A stretch of DNA of 26,694 nt, taken from the NCBI GenBank assembly GCA_038142325.1, contig JAYQJW010000005.1:1-26694 (forward strand), read 5' to 3'. Position 1 is the stretch's first letter. Each line of letters starts with the position of its first letter. The notes under the pieces are model-generated. The model was not told the DNA's origin. It did not search any database and worked only from the letters and a program-made list of their open reading frames with translations. This stretch comes from Gammaproteobacteria bacterium (GTDB taxonomy: Bacteria > Pseudomonadota > Gammaproteobacteria > GCA-002705445 > GCA-002716945). The translations under genes were made by a program, and so were the position numbers. Shown here piece by piece: positions 1,201-17,967 of this stretch.

Positions 1201-1227
1201 TATAATATAGTAGTATATAATAATATT

Positions 1228-2535: not shown

Positions 2536-2612
2536 ATTATAATAGTATATAACCCTATCTCTTTATATTGTTTTTTCTTATAAATATATAATAATAATTC
2601 ATATAAAAGACC

Positions 2613-2763
2613 AAAAAGGTAGGAAAGTAGCAAACTGGGGCAGTAAATACACAATTTTCTTATTTCATTTTTTAAAAAAAAAAAGAGAACGCATCTTTTT
2701 TATATTTTTGATTTATAAAATCTTTGAAACTACCGCACAGGTTTGCTACTTTTCTACCTTTTT
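2613..2763. repeat. Palindromic element copy A (33-bp imperfect inverted arms, AT-rich core)
   Basis: 2613-2645 matches the reverse complement of 2731-2763 at 28/33 positions; arms contain tandem GTAGNAAA units. Confidence 0.9.
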
Positions 2764-2819
2764 CTACCCTTTATAATAAATATCCTTATAAAGATACTTA
2801 TTATAATATAATGATCCAC

Positions 2820-3617
2820 CTACCATACATAAGTAGGGGTGTTGTTGAATGTATTAGCATATGTATTTATGTGGTCGTTTAATCTTTTTTGTTGCTTTTT
2901 GAAGTTTTCTTTAATTTGCTTATCCATAGTTCCTGAATAATTACAACAAGTTTGGAATACATAATCCGCCCTATCAAGGAACTTTTTATAACATATCTTC
3001 ATTTTTATATCTTTCATATATCCTGCCTTAATTTTGATTGATTTTAGGTTCAATATATCATTAATCATATCCAAAGCATCTTTTTTACATAATCCAAAAA
3101 ACTTTTTCATAAAATACTCTTTGTCCCATCTACCCCATCTTTCTCTGGGATTAATGGGTTCTAAATTAGGAAGCACACTATAATAGAAGAAACATTTAAT
3201 ATATTGCTCCTTCATAGTTGCTACTTTACCCCACAGACATTTCTTCGCCAGTTCCTTACCAATTATGATGTCTGCTCTATAATTAAGGAACTTATTGATA
3301 TACCATACCATATCATAAGGTAATTTGGAAACCATTTCTATTTGAAAGTTCTGGGATCTATCAACCTGAAATGTAAGTGATGATTTATATTTATCACAGG
3401 TGATTACAAGTGAGTTCGCCCATCTCCTCAATTCATCAATATCCTTAATTAATAACTCGTTCCTTGCTGTATTTACAACGCTCATATTGAGTTGGTTGTT
3501 TGCTTGGATCATCATATTAATATGCTTTGGAATGTTCGCCACATTCGGTTTGGATTTACCCAATCTGTTCTCTACAACAGCGTCGCTCTCGGTAGTGTAA
3601 TAATAACCTTTACCCAT
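2820..3617 (-). CDS. Hypothetical protein with possible F-box-like motif
   Basis: 265 aa ORF with promoter motif; SKLPYDMVWYINKFL weakly resembles an F-box core. Confidence 0.7.
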   Translation of the reverse strand: MGKGYYYTTESDAVVENRLGKSKPNVANIPKHINMMIQANNQLNMSVVNTARNELLIKDIDELRRWANSLVITCDKYKSSLTFQVDRSQNFQIEMVSKLPYDMVWYINKFLNYRADIIIGKELAKKCLWGKVATMKEQYIKCFFYYSVLPNLEPINPRERWGRWDKEYFMKKFFGLCKKDALDMINDILNLKSIKIKAGYMKDIKMKICYKKFLDRADYVFQTCCNYSGTMDKQIKENFKKQQKRLNDHINTYANTFNNTPTYVW

Positions 3618-3770
3618 CTGCTTCTATATACTACTATAACAGCGTATCTTTATATTGTTTTTTCTTATAAATATATAAGAATAAATCATATAAAAGACCA
3701 AATCCAGTATAATAGAATAAGAAAAAATATGATATAATACCCATTACAGGCATTATATCATAAGATACTT

Positions 3771-4031
3771 TTACATACATTTCCACAACTCACCATACTC
3801 TTTTCTTAAACGAATAGGATAAGTCCAAGTATTCTTATAAGGTTTGATCCCCATAGCGTCCATAATCTCCCTGAACTCTTTTCTATCCATATACCCTTCT
3901 GGTCTATGGTGTTCTAAAATATGCTTACCTCTGTAATCATAAATGTTCGCCATCTCTGGTTTTCTACCATTATAACGAGGGGCAGGTTGAAAGAACTTCT
4001 CACACAAAGCAATATCGGTCTGTAATACCAT
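3771..4031 (-). CDS. Hypothetical protein
   Basis: 86 aa; promoter variant AAAAACCATTTAAAGA upstream; hairpin ATGATATAAT..ATTATATCAT downstream. Confidence 0.7.
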   Translation of the reverse strand: MVLQTDIALCEKFFQPAPRYNGRKPEMANIYDYRGKHILEHHRPEGYMDRKEFREIMDAMGIKPYKNTWTYPIRLRKEYGELWKCM

Positions 4032-4149
4032 TTTATAAATATCTATATCAACTCCTCTTTAAATGGTTTTTATACGAATTATTAATATAAATGATTTATA
4101 CGAAAAAACAATATAAAGGGACACTTCTATATATAATTATAATAGCAAG

Positions 4150-4536
4150 ATGAGTGGTAGGACGATTTCTATGACTATGACCGAGAAGCGAATGTTAGAG
4201 CAGAAGGCGAAAAGTGGTTGGCGTTGTTTCTTCATTATGAGGGACAATTATGATGACCTATGTGGTTATGTAGCACAACTACAAAATAGAAACAGAGCAA
4301 CCAGAGAGCAACTGCGAAATGGTGATGATGTGGATATTGATTTTTTGAAACAGCAGTTTATAGAAATGTATGATAAACTGAAAGAATATACAGAATGTCC
4401 TGTATGTATGGAAACCCTTACCAAAGATAATATTGAAGTCCCCAAATGCGGTCATACAATCTGTAAAACCTGTATTGAAAGGATTAAACAAGATCCAGAA
4501 CCGAAATGTCCCAATTGTAGAAAGAAATATTATTAA
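4150..4536 (+). CDS. Coiled-coil plus C-terminal RING-finger (C3HC4) protein
   Basis: CPVCMETL...CGHTICKTC...CPNCR. Confidence 0.88.
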   Translation: MSGRTISMTMTEKRMLEQKAKSGWRCFFIMRDNYDDLCGYVAQLQNRNRATREQLRNGDDVDIDFLKQQFIEMYDKLKEYTECPVCMETLTKDNIEVPKCGHTICKTCIERIKQDPEPKCPNCRKKYY

Positions 4537-4628
4537 ATGAAAAAACCATATAAAGACATACCACTATAATTTTTTGTAAAGGCATTTTATAAAGTATTTT
4601 TTTATATTTTATAAAATACTGATTTGAC

Positions 4629-5354
4629 CTAATATGAATGAATATTCAATATTTCTAATAATCCTTTTCTAAACCGCTTTGTTGCGTCTTCTTCCATATC
4701 AATTACTAATGGTGAGAACTTTTCGGCAGTAGCATACTTGTATAGTTCCAATAACTCTTCTTTTGTGATCCCCAAACCAAACTCACTTAAAATTAAATTG
4801 ACTTCTCTGTTTCCAGACAATTTCAGTAAAACCATATAACTACAATTATTTCTTATGATTTTTGGTATTTTAAAAAATGATTGACTAATGAATATAACTG
4901 ATACATTCAATTTTCTTGCTCTTATATAATAATTCTCAACCATACTTAAATCCTTTGCTAAAACTAAATCGTCCCATACTACCAAGTGGTTCAATTCTTT
5001 ATCAAACTTATCCAGAGGTGGAGTATTACTTAACCCTTCTTTAATAACAATCTGGTCGCTCTTTTGTGAGATCCACCGATACAAAGGTTCATCTTTATTA
5101 CGAGTTATGATTGTAATACTCTGGAATGTGCCTTTATTAGCACTAAATATGGAGATGAGATTTACGAGAAAGTTTGTCTTTCCTGATCCAGATGGAGCAA
5201 CTATACACATACGAAAAGGTAATTTTAACTGATGTAGATGGAAGTTGGGATTATCCACCTTATCCAGTAATTCCTTTGGTATTTTTTCATATAGGTTTTT
5301 AATTGTTCCATCTGGTTCATCTTCCTTCACAACCTTTTTCTTTTTAGGAGGCAT
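4629..5354 (-). CDS. A32-like (FtsK/HerA) DNA packaging ATPase
   Basis: Walker A APSGSGKT, Walker B LVVWDD, arginine finger region RARKLNVS, and ISQSFFKIPKIIRNN. Confidence 0.95.
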   Translation of the reverse strand: MPPKKKKVVKEDEPDGTIKNLYEKIPKELLDKVDNPNFHLHQLKLPFRMCIVAPSGSGKTNFLVNLISIFSANKGTFQSITIITRNKDEPLYRWISQKSDQIVIKEGLSNTPPLDKFDKELNHLVVWDDLVLAKDLSMVENYYIRARKLNVSVIFISQSFFKIPKIIRNNCSYMVLLKLSGNREVNLILSEFGLGITKEELLELYKYATAEKFSPLVIDMEEDATKRFRKGLLEILNIHSY

Positions 5355-5421
5355 CTATATATAATTAAGAAGAAAATATATTTTTGGAAATAATTTTAAT
5401 CTATACTTAATATATAGTAAA

Positions 5422-6564
5422 ATGAGTGCTTATCCACCACCAAAGGAGAATGTCCCTATTTACAATCCCAAAGATTTTGAGTTTGAAAATATACCATTAA
5501 CATTAGCAGATGCGAAGGATTATTATTTGGAATATCCAACAGCACAAGGCAAAGAAACCTTACAGGAAACAATAATAAATGGTGCTTTAACTTGTAATGA
5601 TGTTGCTACGATTAATGATAGTTTAGACATATCACAACCAACAAATACTTTAAATGCCCTAAATATAGAGCAAGATGAACCAGGATATACTATCAGGGCA
5701 ACCCAAAAAACAGGATCAGGTGGAACATTATTAGTATCTGCCTCATCATCAACAGGTAAAAGTAATGTAATAACCCAACAAGGAGATACTGAAATAGCAG
5801 GAAACACATTAACATTAGTCCCAATAACTCAACAAAACGGACAAGGTATAAGATTACGCTATATATCAAATGATATGTATGGTATTACCAGCATAAAAAA
5901 TAGTGGATCATCACAAGGTATATTAATATTTCCTGATAATTCACAACAAACTACGGCATATAAAGAACAAGTATATAATTTTCCTATGAATTGGAATAAT
6001 GGAAACTGGTATAGATTAGGAAGTCCAGTCCCTTTAAATGTAGGTTTTACATCTGCTTTTATAAATATACCATCATTAGCAGTAAGCGACCCATTATACC
6101 AATACGCAGGGTTCAGTATTACATTAGAAATAACATATAACCTGACTGGTTATGTAAATACAAGCACTAATTTAAATACTGCTAATGTTTATACAGGGTA
6201 TAATTTAGCAAGGTTTAGTATGAGTAGAGCAAATGGAGTAGTAGATATTCAAGATATACTTATGGTTGGTAATATGAGAACCCAACAAACAATAACAGCA
6301 AACGGACAATCTAATTCTAATTTTAAACCTTATTATATAGATTATGCCTCACAAACAAATAAAAATGGATTAGAAATATTCTTTTGGGACGGAACGCTTC
6401 CAGCAGGAGGTAGTCCAGCAGTTAATCCTTCTATTACGAGTTATGTGAGAAGTGTTAGAATTGTAAATACAACACCTACAACATTAACATCTAATCCTAT
6501 GACGAGAACTGAACCAAATAATAAAACAACAACGCCTTTTATTGCTTACTTTAATCCACAATAA
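5422..6564 (+). CDS. Fibre/spike-like virion protein 1
   Basis: T/N/S/G-rich; N-terminus MSAYPPPKENVPIYNP shared with the next two ORFs. Confidence 0.7.
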   Translation: MSAYPPPKENVPIYNPKDFEFENIPLTLADAKDYYLEYPTAQGKETLQETIINGALTCNDVATINDSLDISQPTNTLNALNIEQDEPGYTIRATQKTGSGGTLLVSASSSTGKSNVITQQGDTEIAGNTLTLVPITQQNGQGIRLRYISNDMYGITSIKNSGSSQGILIFPDNSQQTTAYKEQVYNFPMNWNNGNWYRLGSPVPLNVGFTSAFINIPSLAVSDPLYQYAGFSITLEITYNLTGYVNTSTNLNTANVYTGYNLARFSMSRANGVVDIQDILMVGNMRTQQTITANGQSNSNFKPYYIDYASQTNKNGLEIFFWDGTLPAGGSPAVNPSITSYVRSVRIVNTTPTTLTSNPMTRTEPNNKTTTPFIAYFNPQ

Positions 6565-6622
6565 TATAATGATTTAGTAATATTTAATTGGAAAAAAATA
6601 AAATCTTTATTAATTATATATA

Positions 6623-7990
6623 ATGAGTGCTTATCCACCGCCTAATGAGAACTTACCAATTTTTAATCCATTAGATTTTCAACGACCTAATATTCCTCTT
6701 ACTATCAACGATGCGAAGGATTATTTTTTAGAATATCCAACAGCACAAGGACAGGAAACATTAAGCAGTATAATAGTAAATGGATCATCAACTTTTAATG
6801 ATGTAGCAGATGTAAATGATACACTAACAATTAATCAACCAACATCATCTCTAAATGCCGTTCAAATAGTAAGTGATAATCCAGGTTATAGTTTAACCGC
6901 CACTTCAAGAACCAATCCAGGAACAGCAGGATTATTAACCATAACAGGTTCATCGTCAGTAGATAAAGAAAACCCAATAGTAGCGGATACGGATAGTGTT
7001 ATATCCACATCTATAAACGGACAAGATGATACAGGAAACTTATGTTTAACTGGTAAATCATCTACAAATGGAAATGGAATTAGAATATTAGCAGGAAGCG
7101 GTGTTTATAATTACGGACCATTTAAATTATTACAAGGAGCAGGTAATCAAAATGCCGAAATTGTTTTTAGTGATTTAACTACACAAACAACAGCATTTAA
7201 TAGCAGTTTATATGCCCCAATTAATTCACCAGTTTTTACAGGTGTTCCAGAAGCACCCACACCAACACAAGGAGATAATAGCACAAAATTAGCAACAACG
7301 AATTATGTAGATACAGCAGTAGGAGGTGGTGGTTCAGTTCATTATACTTATACTGAATTATTTACTAATGGATCATCAGGAACAAGTGTAAGTATAACTA
7401 TACCTGCTAATTGTATTAGATGTGATGTAATGACTTTTGGTAGGGGAGGTTCAGCAGGGCAAACGAATGCTTATGGTTCTTATGCGGTGAATGGAGGTAG
7501 TGGAGGTGGTGCTTCTATGGTATGTGCTTATGGAGTTCCTATCAATTCACTCTCTACATTAGACCTATATTGGACTGCTGGGACTACGAGTTCAGGAATA
7601 GCATATGTAATGTTAAATAGTGCTTTACCATTAGGTTCTGCTTATAATGGTGGAGATGGTGGAGCAGGACAAAGTAGCGGAACAGGAGCAAAAGGAATAG
7701 GTGCTACGGCAGTAGCAACTCAACCAAAGTTCCCCAATAGTTCTTTTGACGGAACAGACGGACAAGATGGTGGATCATCAGGATTTCCTAATAGTAATGT
7801 CCCACACGGCGGTAATCAACCTGTTAATGTAGGAAAGCAGGAAATTATTGGTGGATCACAGGGCGGACCAGGCATAGGACAGAAATATTCTGCTTTTAAT
7901 GACCCTTCTGTATCACCATCATTTTATTATAATGCTTCACCACATTTAAACGCTGGTAGTTGTCTTATAACTTGGTATATTAAACAATAG
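6623..7990 (+). CDS. Fibre/spike-like virion protein 2 with phage tail-fibre repeat and Gly-rich domain
   Basis: Paralogous N-terminus; YAPINSPVFTGVPEAPTPTQGDNSTKLATTNYV matches a tailed-phage fibre motif; Gly-rich C-terminus. Confidence 0.78.
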   Translation: MSAYPPPNENLPIFNPLDFQRPNIPLTINDAKDYFLEYPTAQGQETLSSIIVNGSSTFNDVADVNDTLTINQPTSSLNAVQIVSDNPGYSLTATSRTNPGTAGLLTITGSSSVDKENPIVADTDSVISTSINGQDDTGNLCLTGKSSTNGNGIRILAGSGVYNYGPFKLLQGAGNQNAEIVFSDLTTQTTAFNSSLYAPINSPVFTGVPEAPTPTQGDNSTKLATTNYVDTAVGGGGSVHYTYTELFTNGSSGTSVSITIPANCIRCDVMTFGRGGSAGQTNAYGSYAVNGGSGGGASMVCAYGVPINSLSTLDLYWTAGTTSSGIAYVMLNSALPLGSAYNGGDGGAGQSSGTGAKGIGATAVATQPKFPNSSFDGTDGQDGGSSGFPNSNVPHGGNQPVNVGKQEIIGGSQGGPGIGQKYSAFNDPSVSPSFYYNASPHLNAGSCLITWYIKQ

Positions 7991-8070
7991 ACCATTTAGA
8001 AGAATATTAAGGATTGATTGCTTAATTTTTATTAATATAATAAATTATTATCTTATTATATTATATATAG

Positions 8071-10365
8071 ATGGCGAATTATCAACCACCAACCGAAGAT
8101 GTGCCTATATTTAATGGTAAGTATTTCACCGCAGAAAACATAACAACAGCAAACGGAGATGGTAGATATTTAAAATTAATAGCACAAGGCGACGAAGATA
8201 TGAATAATTATGATATTCTTAATATCAACCAAGTAGATACTCAATCCGTAAAGTTTGGTGATGGGACTATACAAACAACAGCAGGAGGAGGAGGTGGAGG
8301 AGTTCAAAATCCTATGACTTCCAATTTAGATGCTGGTAATTTTTTTATACAGAATGCTGGTCTAATAGAAACATTTTATTTAGAAAATACAAAAGTAAAT
8401 AATGCTGATGCTATTAAGTATATTAATTTTGGTGCTATAACCGCTGGTGATAAATACTTAATTGGACGAAGTAATAATCGTCTTGCTATGGAAGGTAATA
8501 TTATGGTCTTAATTAGAACTTTGGACGCTGGTTTTAAACAAGAGTTTCTGGCGGAAGTTATAGCATTCCCAGATAGAAGTGTTATAAGAATTATCAATAA
8601 TGTATGTGAAAGCGATACAATACCCATTACTGAAATACTTTATGAAGATGACCCATTAGATCCACTACAATCTGTATTATGTTTTAAATGTGGTGTAAGT
8701 GCTACAAGATGCGATATTTTAGTTTATCAAAATGGTAATGATAATAACACATTAGGAAGTCAATTTTTAATACCTACTACAATAACATCTATACCAACAT
8801 CTACAAATGTATATACATCTGTATTATTGGAAGTCCAAACAGCAGGAACAAGTGGTAATTACAGAACAGCAGGAACAACCTTTTCAAGTGATACACAAAC
8901 TATTACATTAGCAACTAACGCAATAAGAGAATTAACAGCAACAGCAGACATTCAATTACTTAACAATATCAATCTTAATAATAATAGCATTAAAAATACA
9001 AATACAATATCAGTAGATAATATTGGTGTAAATCTCAATAGTGAAATACAATCCACAGCATCAATCAATCTCGGTGGAAATGACCTACAAAATACTAATA
9101 ATGTGTATGTTGATAGTTTAAGAGAGAATACACCAGGTAATAGTATTGTGGTTCATAATACCCTCAATATGAATAATAATCATATACATAATTTAAGTGA
9201 TCCAATACAAAATAAAGATGGTGCTAATAAGCAATATGTAGATACTGCCGTAGCAGGATTTTTAACCAATCCTTTAAATGCTAATTTAGATGGAGCATCA
9301 CTTTATAAAGGTATTAATTTTGTTGATCCAACTAACGCCCAAGATTTAGCAACCAAAAATTATGTGGATACAACAGGAGGAAGTGGAGTTCAAAATCCTA
9401 TGACTTCTAATTTAGATGGTGGGACTTTTAATATTACTAATGTTGGGAACTTCTCTAATGTTCCTACAACAGGTAATTTTTTCAGTAATGGACTATTTCA
9501 ACATTCTAACGGAGCATTCCAAATTGGAGGTTCAGGTATGACGACTGATACAGATGTTAATTTTAATGATAGTGCTACACCTATATTACAAATTAATAAA
9601 ACAGCAAGGCAAATTAATTTAGCGAATGGTTCAACAACATATATTAAACCAGGTGCGGTTTTATCAGCAGGACAAGGTGGAGCATTAATTACATACCAAA
9701 CATCAACACCAGCAACCGCTTATAATGGTGAAATAACAACATCATTTTACCCACCAAATCCAAATAGAAGAAATGATTTTTTGACCTTAACAGGATATAA
9801 TTATGGTAATTCAGTAATTCCTATGGCGATTTCACCGATGACTACACAACAATATTATACTGCTAATGTAGCGGATTATGTGCCTTTTACTGCTGGATTG
9901 GGGTGGAATGCTGGTAATAATGGTGATATAATCCCTCTGGTTCAACGAAATACATTAGTTCAATTGGACGGATTACCACCAGGAATTAATAATCACGATG
10001 CGAATGCGTTTCCGTTTGACGCTCATTTTATAGGAATTGGTTTAAATTGTGCCTCTCAATTAGGAGGTTGGGTATTGACTGGTGTAGCACAAGTAGAATT
10101 AGTTTATAGCATTATTGGTGCGAGTTATGTTTCATTTGTTCCCCCTGTAATAGTAGCACAATCAGGAGCAGGTGGTAATTTAACAATAGAAAATATAAGA
10201 TTACCACAAAGTAGTTGGGTGGAAGCATCTTCTTCCTCTTTTGGTGGTATTCAATTAGGATTACAATTAAACATATCAGGAGCAGATATTATTGATACAC
10301 AAGATCCAAGTAATAAATCTATAAATGCCTGTGGATATTTATTATGTAATATTCCTATCAATTAA
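8071..10365 (+). CDS. Fibre/spike-like virion protein 3
   Basis: Repeats GVQNPMTSNLD (x2), DPIQNKDGANKQYVD and DPTNAQDLATKNYVD; Asn-rich beta repeats. Confidence 0.75.
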   Translation: MANYQPPTEDVPIFNGKYFTAENITTANGDGRYLKLIAQGDEDMNNYDILNINQVDTQSVKFGDGTIQTTAGGGGGGVQNPMTSNLDAGNFFIQNAGLIETFYLENTKVNNADAIKYINFGAITAGDKYLIGRSNNRLAMEGNIMVLIRTLDAGFKQEFLAEVIAFPDRSVIRIINNVCESDTIPITEILYEDDPLDPLQSVLCFKCGVSATRCDILVYQNGNDNNTLGSQFLIPTTITSIPTSTNVYTSVLLEVQTAGTSGNYRTAGTTFSSDTQTITLATNAIRELTATADIQLLNNINLNNNSIKNTNTISVDNIGVNLNSEIQSTASINLGGNDLQNTNNVYVDSLRENTPGNSIVVHNTLNMNNNHIHNLSDPIQNKDGANKQYVDTAVAGFLTNPLNANLDGASLYKGINFVDPTNAQDLATKNYVDTTGGSGVQNPMTSNLDGGTFNITNVGNFSNVPTTGNFFSNGLFQHSNGAFQIGGSGMTTDTDVNFNDSATPILQINKTARQINLANGSTTYIKPGAVLSAGQGGALITYQTSTPATAYNGEITTSFYPPNPNRRNDFLTLTGYNYGNSVIPMAISPMTTQQYYTANVADYVPFTAGLGWNAGNNGDIIPLVQRNTLVQLDGLPPGINNHDANAFPFDAHFIGIGLNCASQLGGWVLTGVAQVELVYSIIGASYVSFVPPVIVAQSGAGGNLTIENIRLPQSSWVEASSSSFGGIQLGLQLNISGADIIDTQDPSNKSINACGYLLCNIPIN
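8299..8332 (+). repeat. 34-bp intragenic direct repeat (second copy 9385-9418)
   Basis: GGAGTTCAAAATCCTATGACTTC(C/T)AATTTAGATG, one mismatch. Confidence 0.9.
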
Positions 10366-10389
10366 TTAATCTCTCACTTATATATAGTG

Positions 10390-11061
10390 ATGAATAAATG
10401 GACAAGTGAAGTAGAAGATATATTGGAAAAATTACGAATAAATTGTGTTAATTTAAGTGAGTATCATAGAAAGCGATATTATCATTTTAAAGGTTATGGA
10501 AAGTGGTTCAGGTTGCCCTTAATTATATTGGCGAGTATAAACTCAACAGCATCAGTAGGTCTTCAACCAGTTTTGGATCAATCAGTTATATCTGGTATAA
10601 CCTGTATAATAGGTATGGCGATGGGAATTATTAGTGCTTATGAACTATATTTAGGGATACAAACAAATATGGAATTAGAACTAAAACAGAGTAAGGATTT
10701 TTACACTTTATCAATAGACCTATTTAAAACACTTTCCTTACGAAGAGAGAATAGAGGTGAAGATGGTAAAGATTATTTAAATAAAAAGTATAGTCATTAC
10801 ATAAAACTCACCGAAGCATCTAATTTATTGAAACGAAAGTTAAGTGTTGATACTTTAACCACTATACCAGCGGAGTTTATTGATAATACACCAAAGGGAA
10901 GTGATAGTGGAAGTGTGGAATTACAATTACCACAAGTATATTCACAACCAAGACCATCATACAGCGAAGAAGATTTAAGAGCAGTCAGTAATACTATTGA
11001 TGAAATATGTAATGATATTGTAGAAGGAGAAAAGAAAGAAAAATCTAATGATATTATATAA
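10390..11061 (+). CDS. Two-transmembrane SLATT-like protein
   Basis: W...H...Y helix, then two hydrophobic helices (LPLIILASINSTASVGL; ISGITCIIGMAMGIISAYELYL). ATG 10390 preferred over GTG 10387. Confidence 0.7.
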   Translation: MNKWTSEVEDILEKLRINCVNLSEYHRKRYYHFKGYGKWFRLPLIILASINSTASVGLQPVLDQSVISGITCIIGMAMGIISAYELYLGIQTNMELELKQSKDFYTLSIDLFKTLSLRRENRGEDGKDYLNKKYSHYIKLTEASNLLKRKLSVDTLTTIPAEFIDNTPKGSDSGSVELQLPQVYSQPRPSYSEEDLRAVSNTIDEICNDIVEGEKKEKSNDII

Positions 11062-11708
11062 TGCCTGAACCTTTGGATAAAGAGTTATACGAACAAGTAA
11101 GAAAATATGCGGATTTGGTATATGATAAACCAAGTGCTTATAAATCTGGATTTATTGTAAAAACCTACAAAGAATATGGAGGTAAATATAAAGGGAAACC
11201 TGATAATGAAGGGTTAGATAGATGGTTTGATGAAAAATGGGAAGATATAGGTAATGATGAAGATAAATACCCTACTTTTAGACCTACAATTAGAGTAAGT
11301 GAGAAAACACCTATTACAAAAGGAGAGTTGGATTATGATGAAAAGCGAAAGAAAATAAAAGAGAAACAGAAGATAAAAGGCAAGAAAAATCTACAACCTT
11401 TCGTCAGTAAGGAAAAGAAAGAACGATTAGAAAAGTATAGTGATCCAACACAAGTATTTAAAAAAGCGAGAGAATATCTGGGTAAAGATGTAATTATTGA
11501 AATATCTGGTAGGAAGGATAAAAAATATATGGTAAAAACACCAGAGGGTAAATGGGTTCATTTCGGTCAAATGGGATATGAAGATTTTACCAAGCATAAG
11601 AACCTGAAACGAAGAGAGAATTATTTAAATAGATCCACCAAAATAAAAGGGGATTGGAAAAGGAATAAATATAGTCCAAATAATTTATCTATCAATATAT
11701 TATGGTAG
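11061..11708 (+). CDS. Two-domain protein with C-terminal Tlr6F-like domain
   Basis: KDKKYMV...VHFGQMGYEDFTKHK..RR..YL.R...SPNNLSINILW resembles the Tlr6F family of PLVs, virophages and NCLDVs. N-terminal PSAYKSG...GLDRWFDEKW domain. Confidence 0.75.
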   Translation: MPEPLDKELYEQVRKYADLVYDKPSAYKSGFIVKTYKEYGGKYKGKPDNEGLDRWFDEKWEDIGNDEDKYPTFRPTIRVSEKTPITKGELDYDEKRKKIKEKQKIKGKKNLQPFVSKEKKERLEKYSDPTQVFKKAREYLGKDVIIEISGRKDKKYMVKTPEGKWVHFGQMGYEDFTKHKNLKRRENYLNRSTKIKGDWKRNKYSPNNLSINILW

Positions 11709-11819
11709 ATGCTATTTTATGGTTGTTGAAAATATGGATTAGCGAATTATTGTGGAAGTATTTAAGAATAAGTATATAATTTTTGGAAAATAAAATATTA
11801 TGTAATTATATAATATATT

Positions 11820-14135
11820 ATGCCGAGATTGAAAAAAAGCGGTGATGAAGTTGTAGCACCTGTATTTGGTGAAAGTGAATTAATCCTACCTGAATATTTT
11901 GTAATTCCTTTTGGAAAGCAAGGAAAATATAAATTGGTTAATCCTACCAGTCAAGAACGAGGATTAAGCACCAGAGGAAAAAAGAAAGCGTTGAAATTAA
12001 CAAGAAAACCAGTAAAAAATGCGGTTTTGGTTGAGGATATGAGTGATCCAATACCTTTGGAACTATTTAGCAAGAAAGATAGAACCATTATTAGAAATCA
12101 CTACAAGTTAGTAAAACAATTTGAAAACAGACCAGCGAAAGATGTTCCACAATTACAACATACCAAACCAAAAGAAAGAGGAAGACCTGAAACACTACCC
12201 AAAAATATAGAAATCAATAAAGCAAGAAAAGAACCACCAGCACCAGAACCAAAGAAAAGAGGAAGACCTACAAAATACCAAAGCGAAGAAGAAAAGAAAC
12301 AAAAGAAAAGAGAACAAACATTAGCATCTAATAAGCGAAAAAGAGAAGAAAAAAAGAAGGCAAAAGAAGCACAAGCAGAAGGAGGAAACATTATTACTGA
12401 TGTAATTAGAAATGTAAAGAACTATGGTATTAGAAAAGGTTTCACAGAAACCATACAAGATAAAGCACATCAAGCAAAAGCAGTCATAACAGGTAATATT
12501 ACACAATTATCACCAAGATTGAAAGAATTATTAAACCAATATGGATCATCAACTATTAAAGGAATAAGTATTAGGCGTAGTCCAGTATCAGGATTACTAA
12601 CAGGTGCTTTATCCTTCTTCTCTGGTGGTAAGTTTGGTGAAAGACAAAAGGAGCGAGAGTTTGATGAACTATTCCATTTATTTATGGTATTCAACCTTAA
12701 TGATGGTAAGCAAATGCTATTAGAGAAAAATGAGAGAATAAATATGGAGTTAAACCCCAAGAAAAGACCAAAAACAGAAGAAGAAATAGTCAGGGTTTTC
12801 CCTATTGATACTCTGGATCTTAATGGAGTATTAGGTAAAACCAAAGCATATATGGGTGATAAGAAGTTCTTTGGTTATTCAGCAAAAGACAACAACTGCC
12901 AGGACTTCATATTGGCGGTTATGAATGCTAATGATATAGGAGATGCTAATGATAGAAAGTTTGTAAAGCAAGATACAAAGGAATTATTTAGGGATTTACC
13001 TTATTTAAGAAAGTTGAGTAATACTTTAACCAATATAGGAGCAAGGGCAAATGTATTTATGGAAGGTGGAGATATTCATAAAGAATATCAAGACGAAGTT
13101 AAAGCACTATTGAATAAGAAAATGAATGCTTCTATTAAAGGTAGAAAGATGAATGAATTAACTGATAAATATAAAATGCTATGTTATAGTAAATCTATGG
13201 AAGGCAAGGGATTACATAGTGAGTATGCGAGTGATGATGAAGAAATTGAAGGTGATGGTATGGAGGAAAGTATAGATTTTGACGATATTAAATGGGGATC
13301 ATTCACCAAACAATATGAGAGATTTAAGAACCAACATAAAAACTCTAATATAAAAGATTTAGAAGATTTCGCCAGAATGCTATTGAAAGACCCCAGTAAG
13401 TATAATAAAACTACAATTAAAAGGGCAAGATTTTATTTAAATGTATTGCTTCCAAAGAAAAATAAAATCTCTGGTAATAGTATAAATATGGTGAAGAAAT
13501 TAACCAAAAAGCAGATGAAGGCATTAGAGAAGGAAACTGATGGAGAAGGCATTTATTTAAGTGGCGTTGGTGGAGATGGATTATATGCTGGTGAAGGTCT
13601 ATATGCTGGTGAAGGTATGTATGCTGGAAGTGGTTGTGCTATATGTGGTTCTGGAATGGAAGGTGGAGCAATCTACCACCCTATTTTAGCGGAAATTGAT
13701 GGCGGAAATATCTTTAAAAGTGCTGGAAGATGGTTCAGGAAAGCAGGAGATACTATTAACAAGGCAGTCATTAAACCAGTAGCAAAAGAGTTTAGTAAAA
13801 AAGGAACTATACAAAGGGGAGTAAATGACGGACTTAAAGAAGCATTCAAAAAGGGTGGTATTATGGAAAAAGCAGGAAGAACCGCTTTTAGAGAAGGTGT
13901 CCCAGTATTAACTGGTGCTTTAACTGGTGCTTTGGGTGGATTAGCAGGTGGTCCTGGTGGTGCTATGTTAGGGTCTTATGCTGGTTCAAAAGGAGGTCAA
14001 GAATTAGTCAAAATGAGTGGTGTAGGTGTTAAGAAAAGAAGTGCTTGGATAGACCAAGTTAAAGCAGTCCAAAAAAGAGATGGTATTTCTTACAAAGAAG
14101 CACTCAAAGTAGCATCAAGGGAACGAAAAAACTAA
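11820..14135 (+). CDS. Putative core polyprotein: AT-hooks, permuted papain-like domain, multiple adenain sites, Gly-zipper, basic tail
   Basis: ERGRP and KKRGRP; FHL...LEKN...YSAKDNNCQDF; MEGG, MEGKG, IEGDG, IDGG, MSGVG; GALTGALGGLAGG. Confidence 0.75.
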   Translation: MPRLKKSGDEVVAPVFGESELILPEYFVIPFGKQGKYKLVNPTSQERGLSTRGKKKALKLTRKPVKNAVLVEDMSDPIPLELFSKKDRTIIRNHYKLVKQFENRPAKDVPQLQHTKPKERGRPETLPKNIEINKARKEPPAPEPKKRGRPTKYQSEEEKKQKKREQTLASNKRKREEKKKAKEAQAEGGNIITDVIRNVKNYGIRKGFTETIQDKAHQAKAVITGNITQLSPRLKELLNQYGSSTIKGISIRRSPVSGLLTGALSFFSGGKFGERQKEREFDELFHLFMVFNLNDGKQMLLEKNERINMELNPKKRPKTEEEIVRVFPIDTLDLNGVLGKTKAYMGDKKFFGYSAKDNNCQDFILAVMNANDIGDANDRKFVKQDTKELFRDLPYLRKLSNTLTNIGARANVFMEGGDIHKEYQDEVKALLNKKMNASIKGRKMNELTDKYKMLCYSKSMEGKGLHSEYASDDEEIEGDGMEESIDFDDIKWGSFTKQYERFKNQHKNSNIKDLEDFARMLLKDPSKYNKTTIKRARFYLNVLLPKKNKISGNSINMVKKLTKKQMKALEKETDGEGIYLSGVGGDGLYAGEGLYAGEGMYAGSGCAICGSGMEGGAIYHPILAEIDGGNIFKSAGRWFRKAGDTINKAVIKPVAKEFSKKGTIQRGVNDGLKEAFKKGGIMEKAGRTAFREGVPVLTGALTGALGGLAGGPGGAMLGSYAGSKGGQELVKMSGVGVKKRSAWIDQVKAVQKRDGISYKEALKVASRERKN

Positions 14136-14180
14136 ATGGGGCGAGTATGCCCTCATCGTCCGTTAATATAATTGAGGGCA
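14126..14180 (+). promoter_or_regulatory. Predicted -1 programmed ribosomal frameshift signal (slippery heptamer plus H-type pseudoknot)
   Basis: A AAA AAC at 14126-14132, in frame just before TAA; 6-nt spacer. Stem 1 GGGCGA(14139-44)/TCGTCC(14156-61); stem 2 TGCCCTCA(14148-55)/TGAGGGCA(14173-80). The -1 frame is open into ORF 14147. Confidence 0.78.
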
Positions 14181-15484
14181 AAGGTGTAGGGAGCATAGAC
14201 AATTATTATCTAAAAATCCATTTTACAGATGCTAATAAGGATTATAGAAATCTAACAATACATACCCCAACGGAAGCACAGATGAAAACATTTCTAACCA
14301 AATTGAAACCAGTATTAAACAAATATAAAATAAGTGTTGATTTAAGTAAATTAAAAATTGGATCATCAAGATATAAAGACCAAGAGTTCTTTATAGAATG
14401 TTGTGAATGGTATGATATGCCTGAATATAAACAAAATCCAGCACTATTGAATACCAAGCATATAGTATTACAAATACAGAAAGGAAACCAAACTGAACCA
14501 TTCTTAACCGATATTAGCAAAATATTAGGTGAAAACATAAATAAAAAAACCTTTGGTTGGTTTCCAGAAAGACCTAATAAAATACTTAACCCTTATAAGG
14601 GTAAGATGTGGGAAAGTAAAGGACATATGCCGAAGTATCCTATTTACATATTATCCAAAGGTAGATGGGAAAGACGATTAACCAGTAAATATTTGGAATG
14701 GTGTGGAATACCATATAAGATTGTTGTTGAACCACAAGAATACGAAAAATACGCCGAACATATTGATAAGAGTAAAATATTGATTTTACCAAAGAAATAT
14801 CTGGGTAAAGACCAAGGAGGAATACCAGCAAGAAACTTCATAATGGATCACGCCAGAAGCAAAAGTAAAACTGGACGGCACTGGATATTGGACGATAATA
14901 TTGGTGATTGGAAAAGATTAAACAATAATGAAAGAGTTGTAGTCAAAGGTGGTTGTGTGTTTAAGGTAGTAGAAGATTATACAGATAGATATGTTGATGT
15001 GAAAATGAGCGGACATAACTACACTATGTTTGGTATGAACCCATCATTAGATCCAATAACAAAAAATACGAGGGTTTATTCTTCTATATTATTAAGCAAC
15101 GATATACCTGATAAAATAGGTGAAGGTTGGAGAGGTAAATATAATGAAGATACTGATTTATCCTTACGATTATTAAAGGCAGGATTTCCTACCATATTGT
15201 TTAATTGTATTATGGCGAATAAAGAAACTACATTAACAAATAAAGGAGGTAATGAGAAAATCTATAAAGAGAAAGATGGTCTTTATAAAAAGGCAAAGTC
15301 ATTAGCAGACCAGCACCCAGATGTCGCCAAAGTTAGTGAGCGTTATGGAAGAGTTCATCATATAGTAGATTATTCTGGATTTAAAAACCTACCATTAAAA
15401 TTAAAACCAGGTTTAAAAATACCTAAAAAAGTAAATAATTATGGAATGAAATTAGTTGATAAAGTCAAAAACCCTATACCATAA
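14147..15484 (+). CDS. TET/JBP-associated (TAGT/GREB1-like) GT-A glycosyltransferase with N-terminal accessory domain
   Basis: YPIYILSKGR, ARNFIMDH, HWILDDNI, TRVYSSIL, WRGKYNEDTDLSLRLLKAG, KGGN, YGRVHHIVDY. Confidence 0.85.
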   Translation: MPSSSVNIIEGKGVGSIDNYYLKIHFTDANKDYRNLTIHTPTEAQMKTFLTKLKPVLNKYKISVDLSKLKIGSSRYKDQEFFIECCEWYDMPEYKQNPALLNTKHIVLQIQKGNQTEPFLTDISKILGENINKKTFGWFPERPNKILNPYKGKMWESKGHMPKYPIYILSKGRWERRLTSKYLEWCGIPYKIVVEPQEYEKYAEHIDKSKILILPKKYLGKDQGGIPARNFIMDHARSKSKTGRHWILDDNIGDWKRLNNNERVVVKGGCVFKVVEDYTDRYVDVKMSGHNYTMFGMNPSLDPITKNTRVYSSILLSNDIPDKIGEGWRGKYNEDTDLSLRLLKAGFPTILFNCIMANKETTLTNKGGNEKIYKEKDGLYKKAKSLADQHPDVAKVSERYGRVHHIVDYSGFKNLPLKLKPGLKIPKKVNNYGMKLVDKVKNPIP

Positions 15485-15566
15485 TCTAAAAGTTAAGTAT
15501 ATAATAAACAATTATGTATATTATATAATTATTAAGATAAATTATGTATTAAAAGTGTATAAAACC

Positions 15567-15588
15567 TTAATAAAATTAATTTTATTAA
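15567..15588. terminator. Perfect 22-bp palindrome between convergent genes
   Basis: TTAATAAAATTAATTTTATTAA; a second hairpin ATTATATGAT..ATCATATAAT lies at 15613-15646. Confidence 0.6.
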
Positions 15589-15659
15589 TACTTTATATAG
15601 ATATTTTATAGTATTATATGATAATTAATATGAATAATCATATAATTCTGTATAAATCC

Positions 15660-16193
15660 TTAACATTCACTTAATATCATAGGTTCTCTTGGATCTTCTA
15701 TATCATCAGGACATTCTTTATACTTCATAAAACTTTCCACAGACGGAAACTTCATAACCCTAATGAGGTCTGTAAGTTTATCAACTGGAATATGGTAATG
15801 TGGTTTAGGTCTGTCCCTAATTCCATACCTATAAGTCATCACATCTTTTACTTCAAATGTATCCCATAACTCTTTATCATAATCCAGAGAGCAAGTAGCG
15901 TCTTTAAAATTAAATACGAATACCTGTTTTTTATCTGTATCTCTTACCTTACTAACTGGAACAATTGTAGTAGGGTATGTGTGCTTATTACATCTACGAG
16001 ATTTCAATTCCCAACTTGTTCCGCTGTTTGCTTCAAAGTCATATATGTAGTAATCGTCCCCATAAATGTCTTTGGTGTTCTTAATGTCCTCTTCATCTTC
16101 CCAATTCAGTTTTAGAATGTCTATGACTTCCAACTCTTTTTCTAACCCCATTTTTAGGTCGTTTTTAAAACTACGGATTTTATCACTTTCCAT
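15660..16193 (-). CDS. PD-(D/E)XK superfamily nuclease
   Basis: G..KE helix, then YDF...WELKSR, YPTTIV..SK, FVFNFKD. Confidence 0.75.
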   Translation of the reverse strand: MESDKIRSFKNDLKMGLEKELEVIDILKLNWEDEEDIKNTKDIYGDDYYIYDFEANSGTSWELKSRRCNKHTYPTTIVPVSKVRDTDKKQVFVFNFKDATCSLDYDKELWDTFEVKDVMTYRYGIRDRPKPHYHIPVDKLTDLIRVMKFPSVESFMKYKECPDDIEDPREPMILSEC

Positions 16194-16289
16194 TTATATA
16201 ATATAACTATATAAAAAATTATAGAAAATTAATCTAAATAATTAATTAAATCGCCTAAATATATTTTCTCTCTTAATATTATATATAGA

Positions 16290-17174
16290 ATGGAAAACAT
16301 TAAGGAATACATTTCTAAAAAGCGTCCCTCACTTTCTAAATCGTCCCTCACTACATACGGAAGTATTTTAAGAAACCTCTACAAGAGAGTTTATGAAGAT
16401 GATGATTATAATTTAGACAGATTTAATGTCCCTGCCCCTGTCCTTAAATATTTAGAAGGAATACCACCAAATAGAAGAAAGACCATTTTAAGTGCTTTGG
16501 TAATCATTACAGATAAAAAGGAATACCGAGATTTAATGCTAAAAGATGTAAGGGATTATAACGCCGACATTAATAAGCAAGAGAAGAATGAAAAACAAGA
16601 AGCAAGTTGGGTTGAGAAAGAAGCAGTCAATCAGGTTGTAGCAGAACTACGAAAGAATGCCGAAGCAATTATGAAGAAAGGACAGAAGACCATAAGTGAT
16701 TTACAAGAAATCCAAAATTACATTATTTTATGTGTTTTAGGTGGTGTATATATTTCACCCAGAAGATCCAAAGATTTTGTTGATTTTAAGATACGAAATA
16801 TTGATGTGAAGAAGGATAATTATATGGAGAAGAATAAGTTTATATTCAACTCTTATAAGACAGCAAAAACATACGGCAAACAAGTTGTAGATATACCAGT
16901 TCAATTGAAGAATATTGTAGCAAAGTGGATCAAGATTAACCCCACCGAGTATTTATTCTTTGATGCTAATATGAATAAGTTAAGTGCTGTGAAACTCAAC
17001 CAAAGGTTAAATAAAATCTTTAATGGTAAGAAGGTTGGTGTTAATCAACTGCGTCATACTTATCTTACTGATAAGTTCGCTGATACGATTAAGAAAGAGA
17101 AGGCAATAGCAGACACTATGGAAGATATGGGATCATCAAAAGAGATGTTAAAGACCTATGTAAAGAAAGAGTAG
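16290..17174 (+). CDS. Tyrosine recombinase (virophage/PLV OLV11-like type)
   Basis: PRRSKDF (Arg), YKTAKTYG (Lys), VNQLRH, MGSS...KTYVK (Tyr). Confidence 0.88.
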   Translation: MENIKEYISKKRPSLSKSSLTTYGSILRNLYKRVYEDDDYNLDRFNVPAPVLKYLEGIPPNRRKTILSALVIITDKKEYRDLMLKDVRDYNADINKQEKNEKQEASWVEKEAVNQVVAELRKNAEAIMKKGQKTISDLQEIQNYIILCVLGGVYISPRRSKDFVDFKIRNIDVKKDNYMEKNKFIFNSYKTAKTYGKQVVDIPVQLKNIVAKWIKINPTEYLFFDANMNKLSAVKLNQRLNKIFNGKKVGVNQLRHTYLTDKFADTIKKEKAIADTMEDMGSSKEMLKTYVKKE

Positions 17175-17308
17175 CAAAGTAGCAAACTTGTGCGGTAATT
17201 ACAAAGATTTTATAAATAATTTTTTAATAATTAATTATGATTATTAAAAAATGAAAAATGTTTTTAAGAAAATATCTAAAACACCGCCCCACTTTGCTAC
17301 TTTTCTAC
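17171..17308. repeat. Palindromic element copy B, inverted relative to copy A
   Basis: Arms 17171-17196 and 17283-17308 match at 22/26. 17171-17217 matches the reverse complement of 2711-2757 at 43/47. Confidence 0.9.
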
Positions 17309-17920: not shown

Positions 17921-17967
17921 CTTATATATTATAAACAGAGAAAATTAATTTTATAATTAATTCTAAA

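What the first reader, a model, noticed from the sequence alone, without database searches (positions are those of the whole stretch)
2613..17308. Two inverted palindromic elements on opposite sides of the circle, one touching the recombinase gene
Seen: elements A (2613-2763) and B (17171-17308) each have inverted arms built of tandem GTAGNAAA octamers plus a GC-rich cap (TGTGCGGT or GGGGC(A/G)GT) around an AT-rich core. A and B are mutually inverted and split the circle into about 14.5 and 12 kb. B overlaps the stop codons of both the recombinase and the protease. Known: the yeast 2-micron circle uses a tyrosine recombinase on two inverted sites to flip and amplify; SF3 helicase origins have inverted iterons flanking AT-rich DNA. 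Inference: either an Flp/FRT-like inversion/amplification or integration system, or twin replication origins.
Basis: partly seen in the sequence, partly recalled or inferred. Interest (0 to 1): 0.75.

Follow-up and report, generated by a model that had tools for sequence, protein, structure and literature searches.

The report
Twin palindromic iteron sites, circular virophage
A circular 26.7-kb virophage-like genome carries two related 150-bp palindromic DNA elements on opposite sides of the circle; they are probably protein-binding sites for genome replication or site-specific recombination, but nothing here shows which.

Summary
The window is a circle of 26,668 bp: a 26-nt end overlap, with the helicase ORF in frame across the joint. 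Elements A (2613-2767) and B (17166-17314) each have two inverted arms. Each arm has 2-3 tandem GTAGNAAA octamers plus a cap, either TGTGCGGT or GGGGCRGT. The arms flank an 87- or 86-nt core of 16% or 9% GC. An 18-nt arm pattern hits exactly these four arms (0.05 expected). A and B are inverted relative to each other and lie 14.55 and 12.12 kb apart. B overlaps the TAG stops of a Cre/Xer-fold tyrosine recombinase and of the cysteine protease.

Function is unresolved. My best reading (0.4) is twin origin-type sites for the D5/P4-family SF3 helicase protein. Eight-bp tandem repeats in inverted sets around easily melted DNA fit such origins and do not fit a simple recombinase core. The main rival (0.25) is a recombinase target for inversion, resolution or integration. 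The nested central dyads have lox-like geometry but differ between A and B, and B's dyad looks like an ordinary post-gene terminator hairpin.

I found no printed description of this architecture.

The parts
2613..2767 (.). Element A, a quasi-palindromic unit in the 284-nt gap between ORF 1639-2535(-) and ORF 2820-3617(-)
2613..2644 (+). A left arm, G-type: octamers at 2619 and 2627 plus cap GGGGCAGT; faces the 12.1-kb arc
2645..2731 (.). A core, 87 nt, 16% GC
2674..2706 (.). A central nested dyad, 13-7-13 with 2 mismatches
2732..2767 (-). A right arm, T-type: cap TGTGCGGT plus octamers at 2742, 2750 and 2760; faces the 14.4-kb arc
17166..17314 (.). Element B; fills the whole 122-nt gap between the convergent recombinase and protease genes and runs into both
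17166..17196 (+). B left arm, T-type: octamers at 17171 and 17179 plus cap TGTGCGGT; holds the recombinase stop 17172-17174
17197..17282 (.). B core, 86 nt, 9% GC; sixth least stable 86-nt locus of the circle
17219..17252 (.). B central nested dyad, a perfect 13-8-13, lying 45 nt after both stop codons; the same class as the post-gene hairpins of other genes
17283..17314 (-). B right arm, G-type: cap GGGGCGGT plus octamers at 17293 and 17301; holds the protease stop 17297-17299
16290..17174 (+). Tyrosine recombinase (OLV11-like Yrec), 294 aa, two-domain Cre/Xer-type fold; catalytic Tyr290 lies 4 residues from the stop
17297..17920 (-). Cysteine protease, 207 aa (weak adenain/ElaD-like matches below Pfam cut-offs; 1203 homologues)
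1..1200 (-). N-terminal 400 aa of the replication protein ('TVpol' part); no family match with the tools used
25475..26668 (-). C-terminal part of the same protein: D5_N plus a P4/D5-family SF3 helicase
26669..26694 (.). 26-nt repeat of window positions 1-26 (circular assembly overlap)
2548..2615 (-). Copy of the upstream repeat D1, a putative promoter of ORF 1639-2535, abutting A's left arm
   Evidence: D1, D11
2771..2806 (.). AT-rich hairpin 14 nt after the stop of ORF 2820-3617, between that gene and A
   Evidence: (I12)

Best explanation
A and B are two copies of one composite cis-acting element. Most likely they are replication-origin-type sites (a pair of 'homologous regions') for the virophage's own primase/polymerase-SF3 helicase. 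Inferred mechanism: the tandem GTAGNAAA octamers plus cap on each arm bind several copies of a sequence-specific protein, most simply the D5/P4-family helicase protein. This places two oppositely oriented assemblies on either side of an 86-87-bp AT-rich stretch that melts or extrudes a hairpin. Priming and bidirectional replication start there. Shown here: the anatomy, its non-random nature, the conserved arm spacing, and the presence of the helicase gene. Inferred: binding, melting and initiation. The recombinase next to B may act on the replicated products at or beside the same site, for example in resolution, but that link is not shown.
For: (1) Short-period tandem repeats in inverted sets flank AT-rich DNA. 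Four arms match one 18-nt pattern against 0.05 expected. The arms are 42-50% GC and the cores 9-16% GC. (2) The cap-to-cap distance is kept at 87 and 86 nt although the centre has diverged, with an 8-column and a 9-column gap that offset each other. This points to a constraint on arm spacing. (3) Conservation between A and B is uneven. Arms and inner flanks are 88% alike, while the cores align only marginally better than shuffles (score 16 against mean 2.5, sd 5.0, max 15 in 300 shuffles). (4) The only replication protein has a P4/D5-family SF3 helicase half: TIGR01613 at 3.1e-18 (65.7 bits, below that model's curated cut-off of 108.7), D5_N at 1.3e-12, ASFV C962R at 5.6e-11, vaccinia D5 at 2.2e-10. 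(5) Precedent exists for this protein class. The pRN1 prim-pol/SF3 helicase protein needs a roughly 100-bp stem-loop with an unconserved interior and conserved flanks. P4 alpha binds repeats at its origin through a winged helix (PMC4234260, passages). (6) The B core is about 3 sd less stable than the genome mean and the A core about 1.8 sd. (7) An 8-bp period is too short for side-by-side tyrosine-recombinase monomers (established knowledge of Cre/Flp/Xer sites, recalled).
Against: One origin would do, so two copies need a further explanation. Base skew follows the coding strand, with no effect of the A-B arcs, so it gives no sign of origins. Several other intergenic stretches are as unstable or more so. 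The G-type/T-type asymmetry of the arms is kept in both elements, which a symmetric bidirectional origin does not require. B sits exactly at the end of the recombinase gene, the classic place for a recombinase site. For PgVV a recombination hotspot was mapped beside the homologous gene (PMC4642659, passages). No DNA-binding domain was shown in the helicase protein: the single-sequence model failed at pLDDT 34.6. Conservation in relatives is unknown.
Confidence: 0.4

Rival explanations
1. A and B are targets of the neighbouring Cre/Xer-type tyrosine recombinase. Because they are inverted, recombination would flip the 14.4-kb arc against the 12.1-kb arc, giving 2-micron-like isomerisation and possibly fork reversal and amplification. 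Alternatively B alone serves as a resolution or integration (attP) site and A is a second copy.
For: The recombinase is real and of the simple two-domain type. Its stop codon lies inside B. A circle, a recombinase, and two inverted sites at nearly opposite positions copy the layout of the 2-micron family (PMC6594588, passages; Futcher model recalled). This recombinase family is 'near-core' in freshwater virophages, present in 16 of 25 contigs (PMC5636890, passages). It also correlates with PolA/AEP replicases (preprint 10.64898/2026.10.13.758929, passages), which hints at a role beyond integration. The PgVV recombination hotspot lies next to the homologous gene (PMC4642659). Identical blocks of 16, 13, 12 and 11 nt exist between A and inverted B that could hold a crossover. 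Two contig lengths in relatives, 14,517 and 12,253, equal the two arcs; the sequences were not seen.
Against: The arms are 8-bp tandem direct repeats 86-87 bp apart, not a 13-8-13 core. The only dyads with that geometry differ in sequence between A and B, and B's dyad matches the ordinary post-gene hairpins. A and B are 70-80% alike, with no sign of the homogenisation that frequent exchange gives. An attP is normally single. Near-symmetric sites would also permit deletion into two defective circles.
Confidence: 0.25
2. A and B are transcription punctuation: compound hairpin terminators or insulators used by the giant-virus transcription and 3'-end processing machinery. They would stop read-through between convergent genes (B) and between neighbouring units (A).
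For: Fifteen of 26 genes have an AT-rich hairpin of at least 10 pairs within 140 nt after the stop. B's central dyad lies 45 nt after both stops and is the best of them, with 13 perfect pairs. Mimiviridae transcripts end at hairpin-forming palindromes (PMC4402537, abstract start in the listing). Both elements lie at 3' ends of genes.
Against: The gene upstream of A already has its own hairpin at 2771-2806, between its stop and A. The convergent RING/ATPase pair makes do with a plain shared hairpin and no arms. Nothing in this role calls for GC-containing caps, tandem octamers, or a conserved 86-87-nt spacing. Only 2 of about 24 gene junctions carry arms.
Confidence: 0.12
3. A and B are relics or selfish DNA with no present function. 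They could be two copies of a MITE-like element, or junction scars left where terminal inverted repeats of linear ancestors or modules were joined.
For: Each element has terminal-inverted-repeat-like arms, and there are two copies in opposite orientation. Each arc is bracketed by one arm type, as if it had its own terminal repeats. Endogenous virophages with non-pPolB replicases carry palindromes within their terminal repeats (preprint 10.64898/2026.07.28.741278, passages). Internal inverted and palindromic repeats bracket modules in some related genomes (preprint 10.64898/2026.10.13.758929, section 13).
Against: No target-site duplication is visible at either element (by eye). B's arms are woven into the last codons and stops of two conserved genes. 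The recombinase tail length is constant in the 120 sequences compared (the window's own protein plus 119 homologues, 67-100% identity). Arms and spacing are better kept than the core. Core virion genes are split between the two arcs, so neither arc looks like an inserted unit.
Confidence: 0.1
4. A and B are loading or polarity signals for the FtsK/HerA-family packaging ATPase: converging polar octamers, as KOPS converge on dif. They may be coupled to Xer-like resolution by the recombinase.
For: The octamers on the two arms point towards the core from both sides. The genome encodes an A32-type ATPase (PF04665, 1e-12) and a Xer/Cre-fold recombinase. The KOPS/dif comparison is recalled, not tested.
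Against: The 241-aa ATPase shows no extra DNA-recognition domain. Outside A and B there are 10 octamer hits, against 5.56 expected for the whole window; their orientation relative to A and B was not analysed. There is no precedent in this virus group.
Confidence: 0.05

Closest known systems
Origins of SF3-helicase initiators (SV40 site II pentanucleotides, papillomavirus E1 sites; recalled)
   Same: Short tandem recognition repeats in inverted sets next to AT-rich, easily melted DNA; the initiator is an SF3 helicase encoded by the same small circular dsDNA genome.
   Different: In those origins the inverted sets adjoin each other and the origin is single. Here the sets are 86-87 bp apart, the element occurs twice, and the helicase is of the D5/P4 branch. 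Binding is untested.
pRN1 ORF904 stem-loop origin and the phage P4 alpha origin (PMC4234260, passages)
   Same: The replication protein is a primase/polymerase fused to an SF3 helicase. The cis site is a roughly 100-bp stem-loop whose interior is poorly conserved while its flanks are conserved (pRN1), or repeats bound by the protein's winged helix (P4). That P4 also needs a second distant repeat-bearing site, crr, is recalled and was not read.
   Different: pRN1 lacks iterons and its stem-loop lies just after the replication gene. Here A is 1.4 kb upstream of that gene and B is 9 kb from it. No winged helix has been shown here.
Yeast 2-micron family Flp/FRT (PMC6594588, passages; amplification model recalled)
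   Same: A circle split into two arcs by two head-to-head sites, with a simple tyrosine recombinase gene beside one of them.
   Different: The 2-micron repeats are a 599-bp pair with 13-8-13 FRT cores (the core geometry is recalled). Here the elements are 150 bp and 70-80% alike, the arms are built of 8-bp repeats, and no shared 13-8-13 core was found. Isomers were not examined.
Baculovirus homologous regions and the HSV oriL/oriS palindromes (recalled)
   Same: Several copies of imperfect palindromes dispersed around a viral dsDNA genome, with binding sites for a viral protein flanking an AT-rich centre; they act as origins and/or enhancers.
   Different: Unrelated viruses and proteins, and different repeat units. 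This is a resemblance only, recalled and not tested.
Terminal palindromes in the TIRs of endogenous virophages (preprint 10.64898/2026.07.28.741278, passages)
   Same: Same virus group. The palindromes are associated with non-pPolB replication genes, and a role in replication (hairpin priming) is proposed.
   Different: Those are 52-nt palindromes at the ends of linear integrated elements. Here the elements are internal to a circular map and carry iteron arms.

Membership tests
Tyrosine recombinase (Cre/Xer-type), for the gene touching B | Two-domain tyrosine-recombinase fold | tested here: met
   Model pLDDT 93.6, pTM 0.82. Foldseek: Cre 1ma7_B at E 9.1e-5 with TM 0.56, then XerA, XerH and lambda Int; 31 hits at E <= 0.001.
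Tyrosine recombinase (Cre/Xer-type), for the gene touching B | Catalytic Arg, Lys, Arg and the C-terminal nucleophile Tyr conserved | tested here: met
   R158, R159, K190, R255 and Y290 are invariant in 38 family members of 35-52% identity. Assigning these residues to catalytic roles is my own reading.
Tyrosine recombinase (Cre/Xer-type), for the gene touching B | Match to a curated integrase sequence model | tested here: inconclusive
   No Pfam family at E <= 0.01. No NCBIfam hit. No PDB sequence hit, even with a profile. Only PHROG 216 'integrase' at 1.9e-4.
Flp/FRT-like inversion (2-micron type) | Circular replicon that encodes the recombinase | tested here: met
Flp/FRT-like inversion (2-micron type) | Two sites in inverted orientation | tested here: met
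   Inverted matches at 88% against direct matches at 74-75%; the margin is modest because each site is a quasi-palindrome.
Flp/FRT-like inversion (2-micron type) | Both sites share a core of two inverted roughly 13-bp elements around an identical 6-8-bp spacer | tested here: not met
   Dyads with this geometry exist at 2674-2706 and 17219-17252, but they differ in both arms and spacer. No other dyad is shared. A non-canonical core in the conserved 16-nt block cannot be excluded.
Flp/FRT-like inversion (2-micron type) | Both inversion isomers are present in the population | not testable with these tools
Iteron-type replication origin | Clustered repeats of a short recognition motif | tested here: met
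   2-3 tandem octamers on each of the four arms.
Iteron-type replication origin | Adjacent AT-rich region of low helical stability | tested here: inconclusive
   Cores are 9% and 16% GC. B ranks sixth among non-overlapping 86-nt loci and A ranks 1314 of 26,668 windows. Other intergenic regions are as unstable.
Iteron-type replication origin | An initiator/helicase is encoded by the replicon | tested here: met
   D5_N plus a P4/D5-family SF3 helicase.
Iteron-type replication origin | The initiator binds the repeats and replication starts there | not testable with these tools
   This needs EMSA or footprinting and origin mapping. The model of the helicase half failed at pLDDT 34.6.
Iteron-type replication origin | Strand-composition switch at the site | tested here: inconclusive
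   Third-position skew follows gene direction (GC3 coefficient 0.135) and not the arc (-0.060).
Mimiviridae-type hairpin terminator | AT-rich palindrome with a short loop shortly after the stop codon | tested here: met
   This holds for B's central dyad only: 13 pairs, 8-nt loop, 45 nt after both stops. Fifteen of 26 genes have a comparable hairpin. The arms are not explained by it.
MITE / small non-autonomous transposon | Terminal inverted repeats | tested here: met
MITE / small non-autonomous transposon | Flanking target-site duplication | tested here: not met
   No direct repeat is seen at any plausible boundary of A or B (by eye).
attP of an integrative element | A single site adjacent to the integrase gene, sharing a core with a host attB (often a tRNA gene) | tested here: inconclusive
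   B is adjacent to the gene, but there are two copies. The window has no tRNA gene and no Rfam family match. No host or giant-virus sequence was available to compare.

The most novel reading that the evidence does not exclude
The virophage runs a 2-micron-like module. Its near-core Cre/Xer-type recombinase exchanges strands between A and B, which double as or sit beside origins. This flips one replication fork, so a single initiation yields long multimers for packaging inside the giant-virus factory. It would be an independent invention of Flp/FRT-style amplification in a virus, and it would explain why this recombinase travels with PolA/AEP-type replicases.
Probability: 0.12. Interest if true: 0.85.

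Novelty: new variant of a known kind. Interest (0 to 1): 0.55.

Why it matters
I know of no mapped cis-acting replication, recombination or packaging site for any virophage, and the searches listed under Tried and rejected found none. This MCP family is abundant in metagenomes (2381 homologues), and its OLV11-type recombinase is called near-core without a known job (PMC5636890). A recent preprint calls the link between these recombinases and PolA/AEP replicases 'elusive'. Two sharply defined 150-bp elements, one touching the recombinase gene and one in the cluster of genes carrying the D1 upstream repeat that holds the replicase, give concrete substrates. Binding and recombination assays, and read-level isomer searches, can use them directly. 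That makes the question testable.

Tried and rejected
Relatives' DNA:
- tblastn of the MCP and the recombinase against the phage collection found nothing.
- The single genome-contig scan, with an MCP alignment, gave only a 1575-nt MCP fragment with no flanks (L001).

Synteny from protein records:
- The listing of cluster members returned no accessions.
- Tara gene coordinates give one possible pair: protease + strand 24-683 and recombinase - strand 809-1693, a 125-nt gap. I could not show that they share a contig.

C-terminal tails as a proxy for arm conservation:
- Recombinase tails are near-constant (…YVKK, with or without D/E) in 120 sequences.
- The protease tail of the type encoded by the arm (MV[EG]K) occurs in only 6 of the 120 sequences compared. 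This is uninformative beyond those relatives.

Other analyses:
- Skew analysis was uninformative.
- A bacterial promoter/terminator scan around A found nothing and is not suited to this system.
- No tRNA genes and no Rfam families were found.
- Atlas look-ups of the two genes flanking A gave only weak RING-finger leads for ORF 1639-2535 and nothing for ORF 2820-3617.
- The single-sequence model of the helicase half was useless (pLDDT 34.6), so no fold search was run on it.
- The recombinase profile against PDB sequences gave no true hit.

Literature:
- Searches for the motif strings returned only unrelated primer hits.
- Searches for virophage with replication origin, iteron, palindrome or inversion, and for virophage recombinase integration sites, found no description of these elements.

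Readings rejected:
- Assembly artefact. The ORF runs in frame across the joint, and MCPs in the same 90%-identity cluster come from contigs of 26,674, 26,694 and 26,921 nt.
- Hairpin-telomere or protelomerase site. The two arcs are unique sequence, and the recombinase is a 294-aa Cre/Xer type.

Full report
WHAT THE WINDOW IS. The last 26 nt repeat the first 26 nt, so the sequence is a circular or circularly permuted assembly of 26,668 bp. A minus-strand ORF that starts at 1200 runs off position 1 and continues in frame at 26668 down to 25475, giving 797 aa (coordinates).

The gene set is that of a virophage:
- an A32-type packaging ATPase (PF04665, 1e-12);
- a cysteine protease with weak adenain-like matches;
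- a 593-aa capsid protein with 2381 homologues, many from contigs of about 26 kb;
- a TET-associated glycosyltransferase;
- a clear RING protein at 4150-4536 and a second ORF (1639-2535) with only a weak RING-like match;
- a replication protein whose C-terminal half is D5_N plus a P4/D5-family SF3 helicase.
The N-terminal 400 aa of the replication protein matched nothing in Pfam, PHROGs, NCBIfam or PDB sequences. The 'TVpol' label therefore rests on the literature for this gene type (PMC4642659, passages). MCPs in the same 90%-identity cluster come from contigs of 26,674, 26,694 and 26,921 nt.

THE OBSERVATION. It is correct in every particular I could check.
- GTAGNAAA occurs 19 times against 5.6 expected, and 9 of the 19 lie in A or B.
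- An 18-nt octamer-plus-cap pattern, with up to 3 mismatches, hits only the four arms against 0.05 expected.
- Each arm has two perfect octamers. A's right arm has a third, and the other arms have degenerate outer copies.
- Each arm ends in one of two caps, TGTGCGGT ('T-type') or GGGGC(A/G)GT ('G-type').
- The arms are 42-50% GC and enclose cores of 87 nt (A, 16% GC) and 86 nt (B, 9% GC).
- As single strands both elements fold far better than shuffles, with z = -6.7 and -6.1.

A carries a G-type arm on the left and a T-type arm on the right; B is the reverse. The inverted matches are 52 nt and 32 nt at 88%, while the direct matches reach 74-75%. Because each element is itself nearly two-fold symmetric, the whole-element margin is modest: 115 of 164 columns against 107 of 158. 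The orientation call is carried by the caps, a 1-nt indel, and inner blocks of 16, 13 and 9 identical nt.

The centres lie 14,551.5 and 12,116.5 bp apart. Both T-type arms face the 14.4-kb arc and both G-type arms face the 12.1-kb arc. The TAG stops of the recombinase and the protease both lie within GTAG of an octamer. TAG is not unusual in this genome, being used by 8 of 26 genes.

FINER ANATOMY.

First, the cap-to-cap spacing is kept (87 against 86 nt) although the centres have diverged, with an 8-column and a 9-column gap that offset each other. Arms and inner flanks are much better conserved than the cores. The cores align only marginally better than shuffles: score 16 against mean 2.5, sd 5.0, max 15.

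Second, each element has a nested central dyad with lox/FRT-like geometry. B has a perfect 13-8-13 at 17219-17252 and A has a 13-7-13 with 2 mismatches at 2674-2706. The two differ in sequence.

Third, AT-rich hairpins of at least 10 pairs follow 15 of 26 genes within 140 nt of the stop. B's central dyad, 45 nt after both stops, belongs to this class. This matches the hairpin-end rule of Mimiviridae transcripts (PMC4402537, abstract start seen). The gene upstream of A has its own hairpin at 2771-2806, between its stop and A. A is therefore not needed as that gene's terminator.

THE NEIGHBOURING RECOMBINASE. The 294-aa protein has no Pfam, NCBIfam or PDB sequence match and only a weak PHROG integrase hit. 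Its family is nonetheless large, with 2333 representatives at E <= 0.001. The residues R158, R159, K190, R255 and Y290 are invariant in a 38-sequence alignment. The alignment-based model (pLDDT 93.6) matches Cre, XerA, XerH and lambda Int.

It is thus a simple two-domain tyrosine recombinase with no arm-binding domain. Such enzymes use compact sites of two inverted half-sites around a 6-8-bp spacer (established knowledge, recalled). The protein is not truncated by B. All 120 sequences compared (the window's own protein plus 119 homologues, 67-100% identity) end 3-6 residues after the Tyr. The family is the OLV11-like 'Yrec', which is reported as near-core in freshwater virophages (PMC5636890, passages). 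A recombination hotspot was mapped beside the gene in PgVV (PMC4642659, passages).

WHAT IT MOST LIKELY IS. I favour origin-type initiator-binding sites, at 0.4. The design is inverted sets of short-period tandem repeats on either side of easily melted DNA, at a fixed spacing, in a small circular genome whose one replication protein is an SF3 helicase fusion. That design is the hallmark of such origins (recalled for SV40 and papillomavirus).

The closest experimental parallels are two. The first is the roughly 100-bp stem-loop required by the pRN1 prim-pol/SF3 helicase protein, whose interior is poorly conserved while its flanks are conserved. The second is the repeat-binding winged helix of P4 alpha (PMC4234260, passages). 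An 8-bp repeat period is too short for adjacent tyrosine-recombinase monomers.

Several points weigh against this reading:
- Two copies are not required.
- Skew is uninformative: it follows gene direction, with coefficients of 0.135 for direction and -0.060 for arc.
- The cores are not uniquely unstable. B is the sixth least stable locus, and A ranks 1314 of 26,668 windows.
- The kept G/T asymmetry is unexplained.
- Binding is untested.

RIVALS.
- A recombinase target, at 0.25. This is favoured by B's position, by the 2-micron-like layout (PMC6594588, passages), and by the reported association of these recombinases with PolA/AEP replicases, which the authors call elusive (preprint 10.64898/2026.10.13.758929). 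It is weakened by the arm architecture, by the unshared central dyads and by the 70-80% identity between A and B.
- Transcription punctuation, at 0.12. This explains B's centre but not the arms, the caps, the spacing or A.
- A relic or selfish element, at 0.1. No target-site duplication is seen, the arms are woven into two conserved gene ends, and the core virion genes are split across both arcs. Still, terminal palindromes and internal repeats have been reported in this virus group.
- A KOPS/dif-like packaging signal, at 0.05. This is a recalled analogy only.
These readings are not exclusive. An origin whose products are resolved by the adjacent recombinase would satisfy both main ideas.

WHAT COULD NOT BE DONE. 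The decisive tests were out of reach. These are conservation of the arms in relatives, inversion differences between relatives, and isomer reads. The phage collection holds no relative. The one genome-contig scan returned a 1.6-kb MCP fragment. Cluster look-ups gave no accessions.

Two contig lengths in relatives, 14,517 (recombinase-bearing, 92% identity) and 12,253 (MCP-bearing, 86%), equal the two arcs. This is a lead only, because I could not see those contigs.

NOVELTY. Searches of the held literature found no description of paired internal iteron-palindromes in a circular virophage. These covered the motif strings, virophage with origin, iteron, palindrome or inversion, and virophage recombinase integration sites. 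The nearest reports are terminal palindromes in endogenous virophages and unspecified internal repeats in multi-replicase genomes. bioRxiv supplements were closed and could hold relevant maps. I rate this a new variant of a known kind of cis element, with interest 0.55.

Noticed in passing
window 1216-1283, 1588-1655, 2548-2615, 3635-3702 (minus-sense) and 4081-4144 (plus-sense): A shared upstream repeat (D1; core reads AAAAAACAATATAAAG in gene sense) precedes the replication protein, ORFs 1309-1572, 1639-2535 and 2820-3617, and the RING gene. It looks like one promoter class for a regulatory/replication gene cluster. Element A sits in the middle of this cluster.
   Followed up: partly
window 17917-17969, 21040-21092, 21655-21707, 22603-22632, 25226-25278; also 5377-5416, 6581-6620, 11773-11812: A second family of AT-rich upstream repeats, several with a TCTA-like core, precedes the structural and late-looking genes. 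This suggests a second promoter class. The resemblance to giant-virus late promoters is recalled, not tested.
   Followed up: no
whole window; e.g. 2771-2806, 15604-15655, 17219-17252, 19079-19149: Fifteen of 26 genes are followed within 140 nt by an AT-rich hairpin of at least 10 pairs with a 4-12-nt loop. Convergent pairs (RING/ATPase, recombinase/protease) share one. This is consistent with giant-virus-style hairpin 3'-end formation.
   Followed up: yes
window 2560-2584 and 2770-2794: A further 25-nt inverted repeat (80%) lies outside both arms of A. The left copy is part of the D1 promoter repeat, so the quasi-palindrome around A extends to about 235 nt. B has no such outer pair.
   Followed up: no
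window 5418-5478, 6619-6679, 8067-8127 (starts of ORFs 5422-6564, 6623-7990, 8071-10365): Three consecutive genes share their first roughly 20 codons (62-79% nt identity) and further internal repeats (8289-8360 and 9375-9446). They form a paralogous family of unknown function, possibly surface or fibre proteins.
   Followed up: no
That would be expected if some assemblies of relatives break at the elements, through repeats or isomers.
   Followed up: no
L001 (1575 nt): A virophage MCP fragment (46% identity to the window's MCP) sits as a short contig in a metagenome bin labelled Legionella. This is most simply a mis-binned virophage contig.
   Followed up: no
window 21423-21714, 25230-25474, 19059-19263: Three other long non-coding gaps (292, 245 and 205 nt) carry no arm motifs. 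Their content, beyond promoter-like repeats and hairpins, was not examined.
   Followed up: no
window 11061-11708 and 14147-15484: One protein combines DUF5872 (6.9e-30) and DUF5754 (6.3e-19). Another carries a TET-associated glycosyltransferase domain (5.9e-33) with no TET/JBP gene seen in the window.
   Followed up: no
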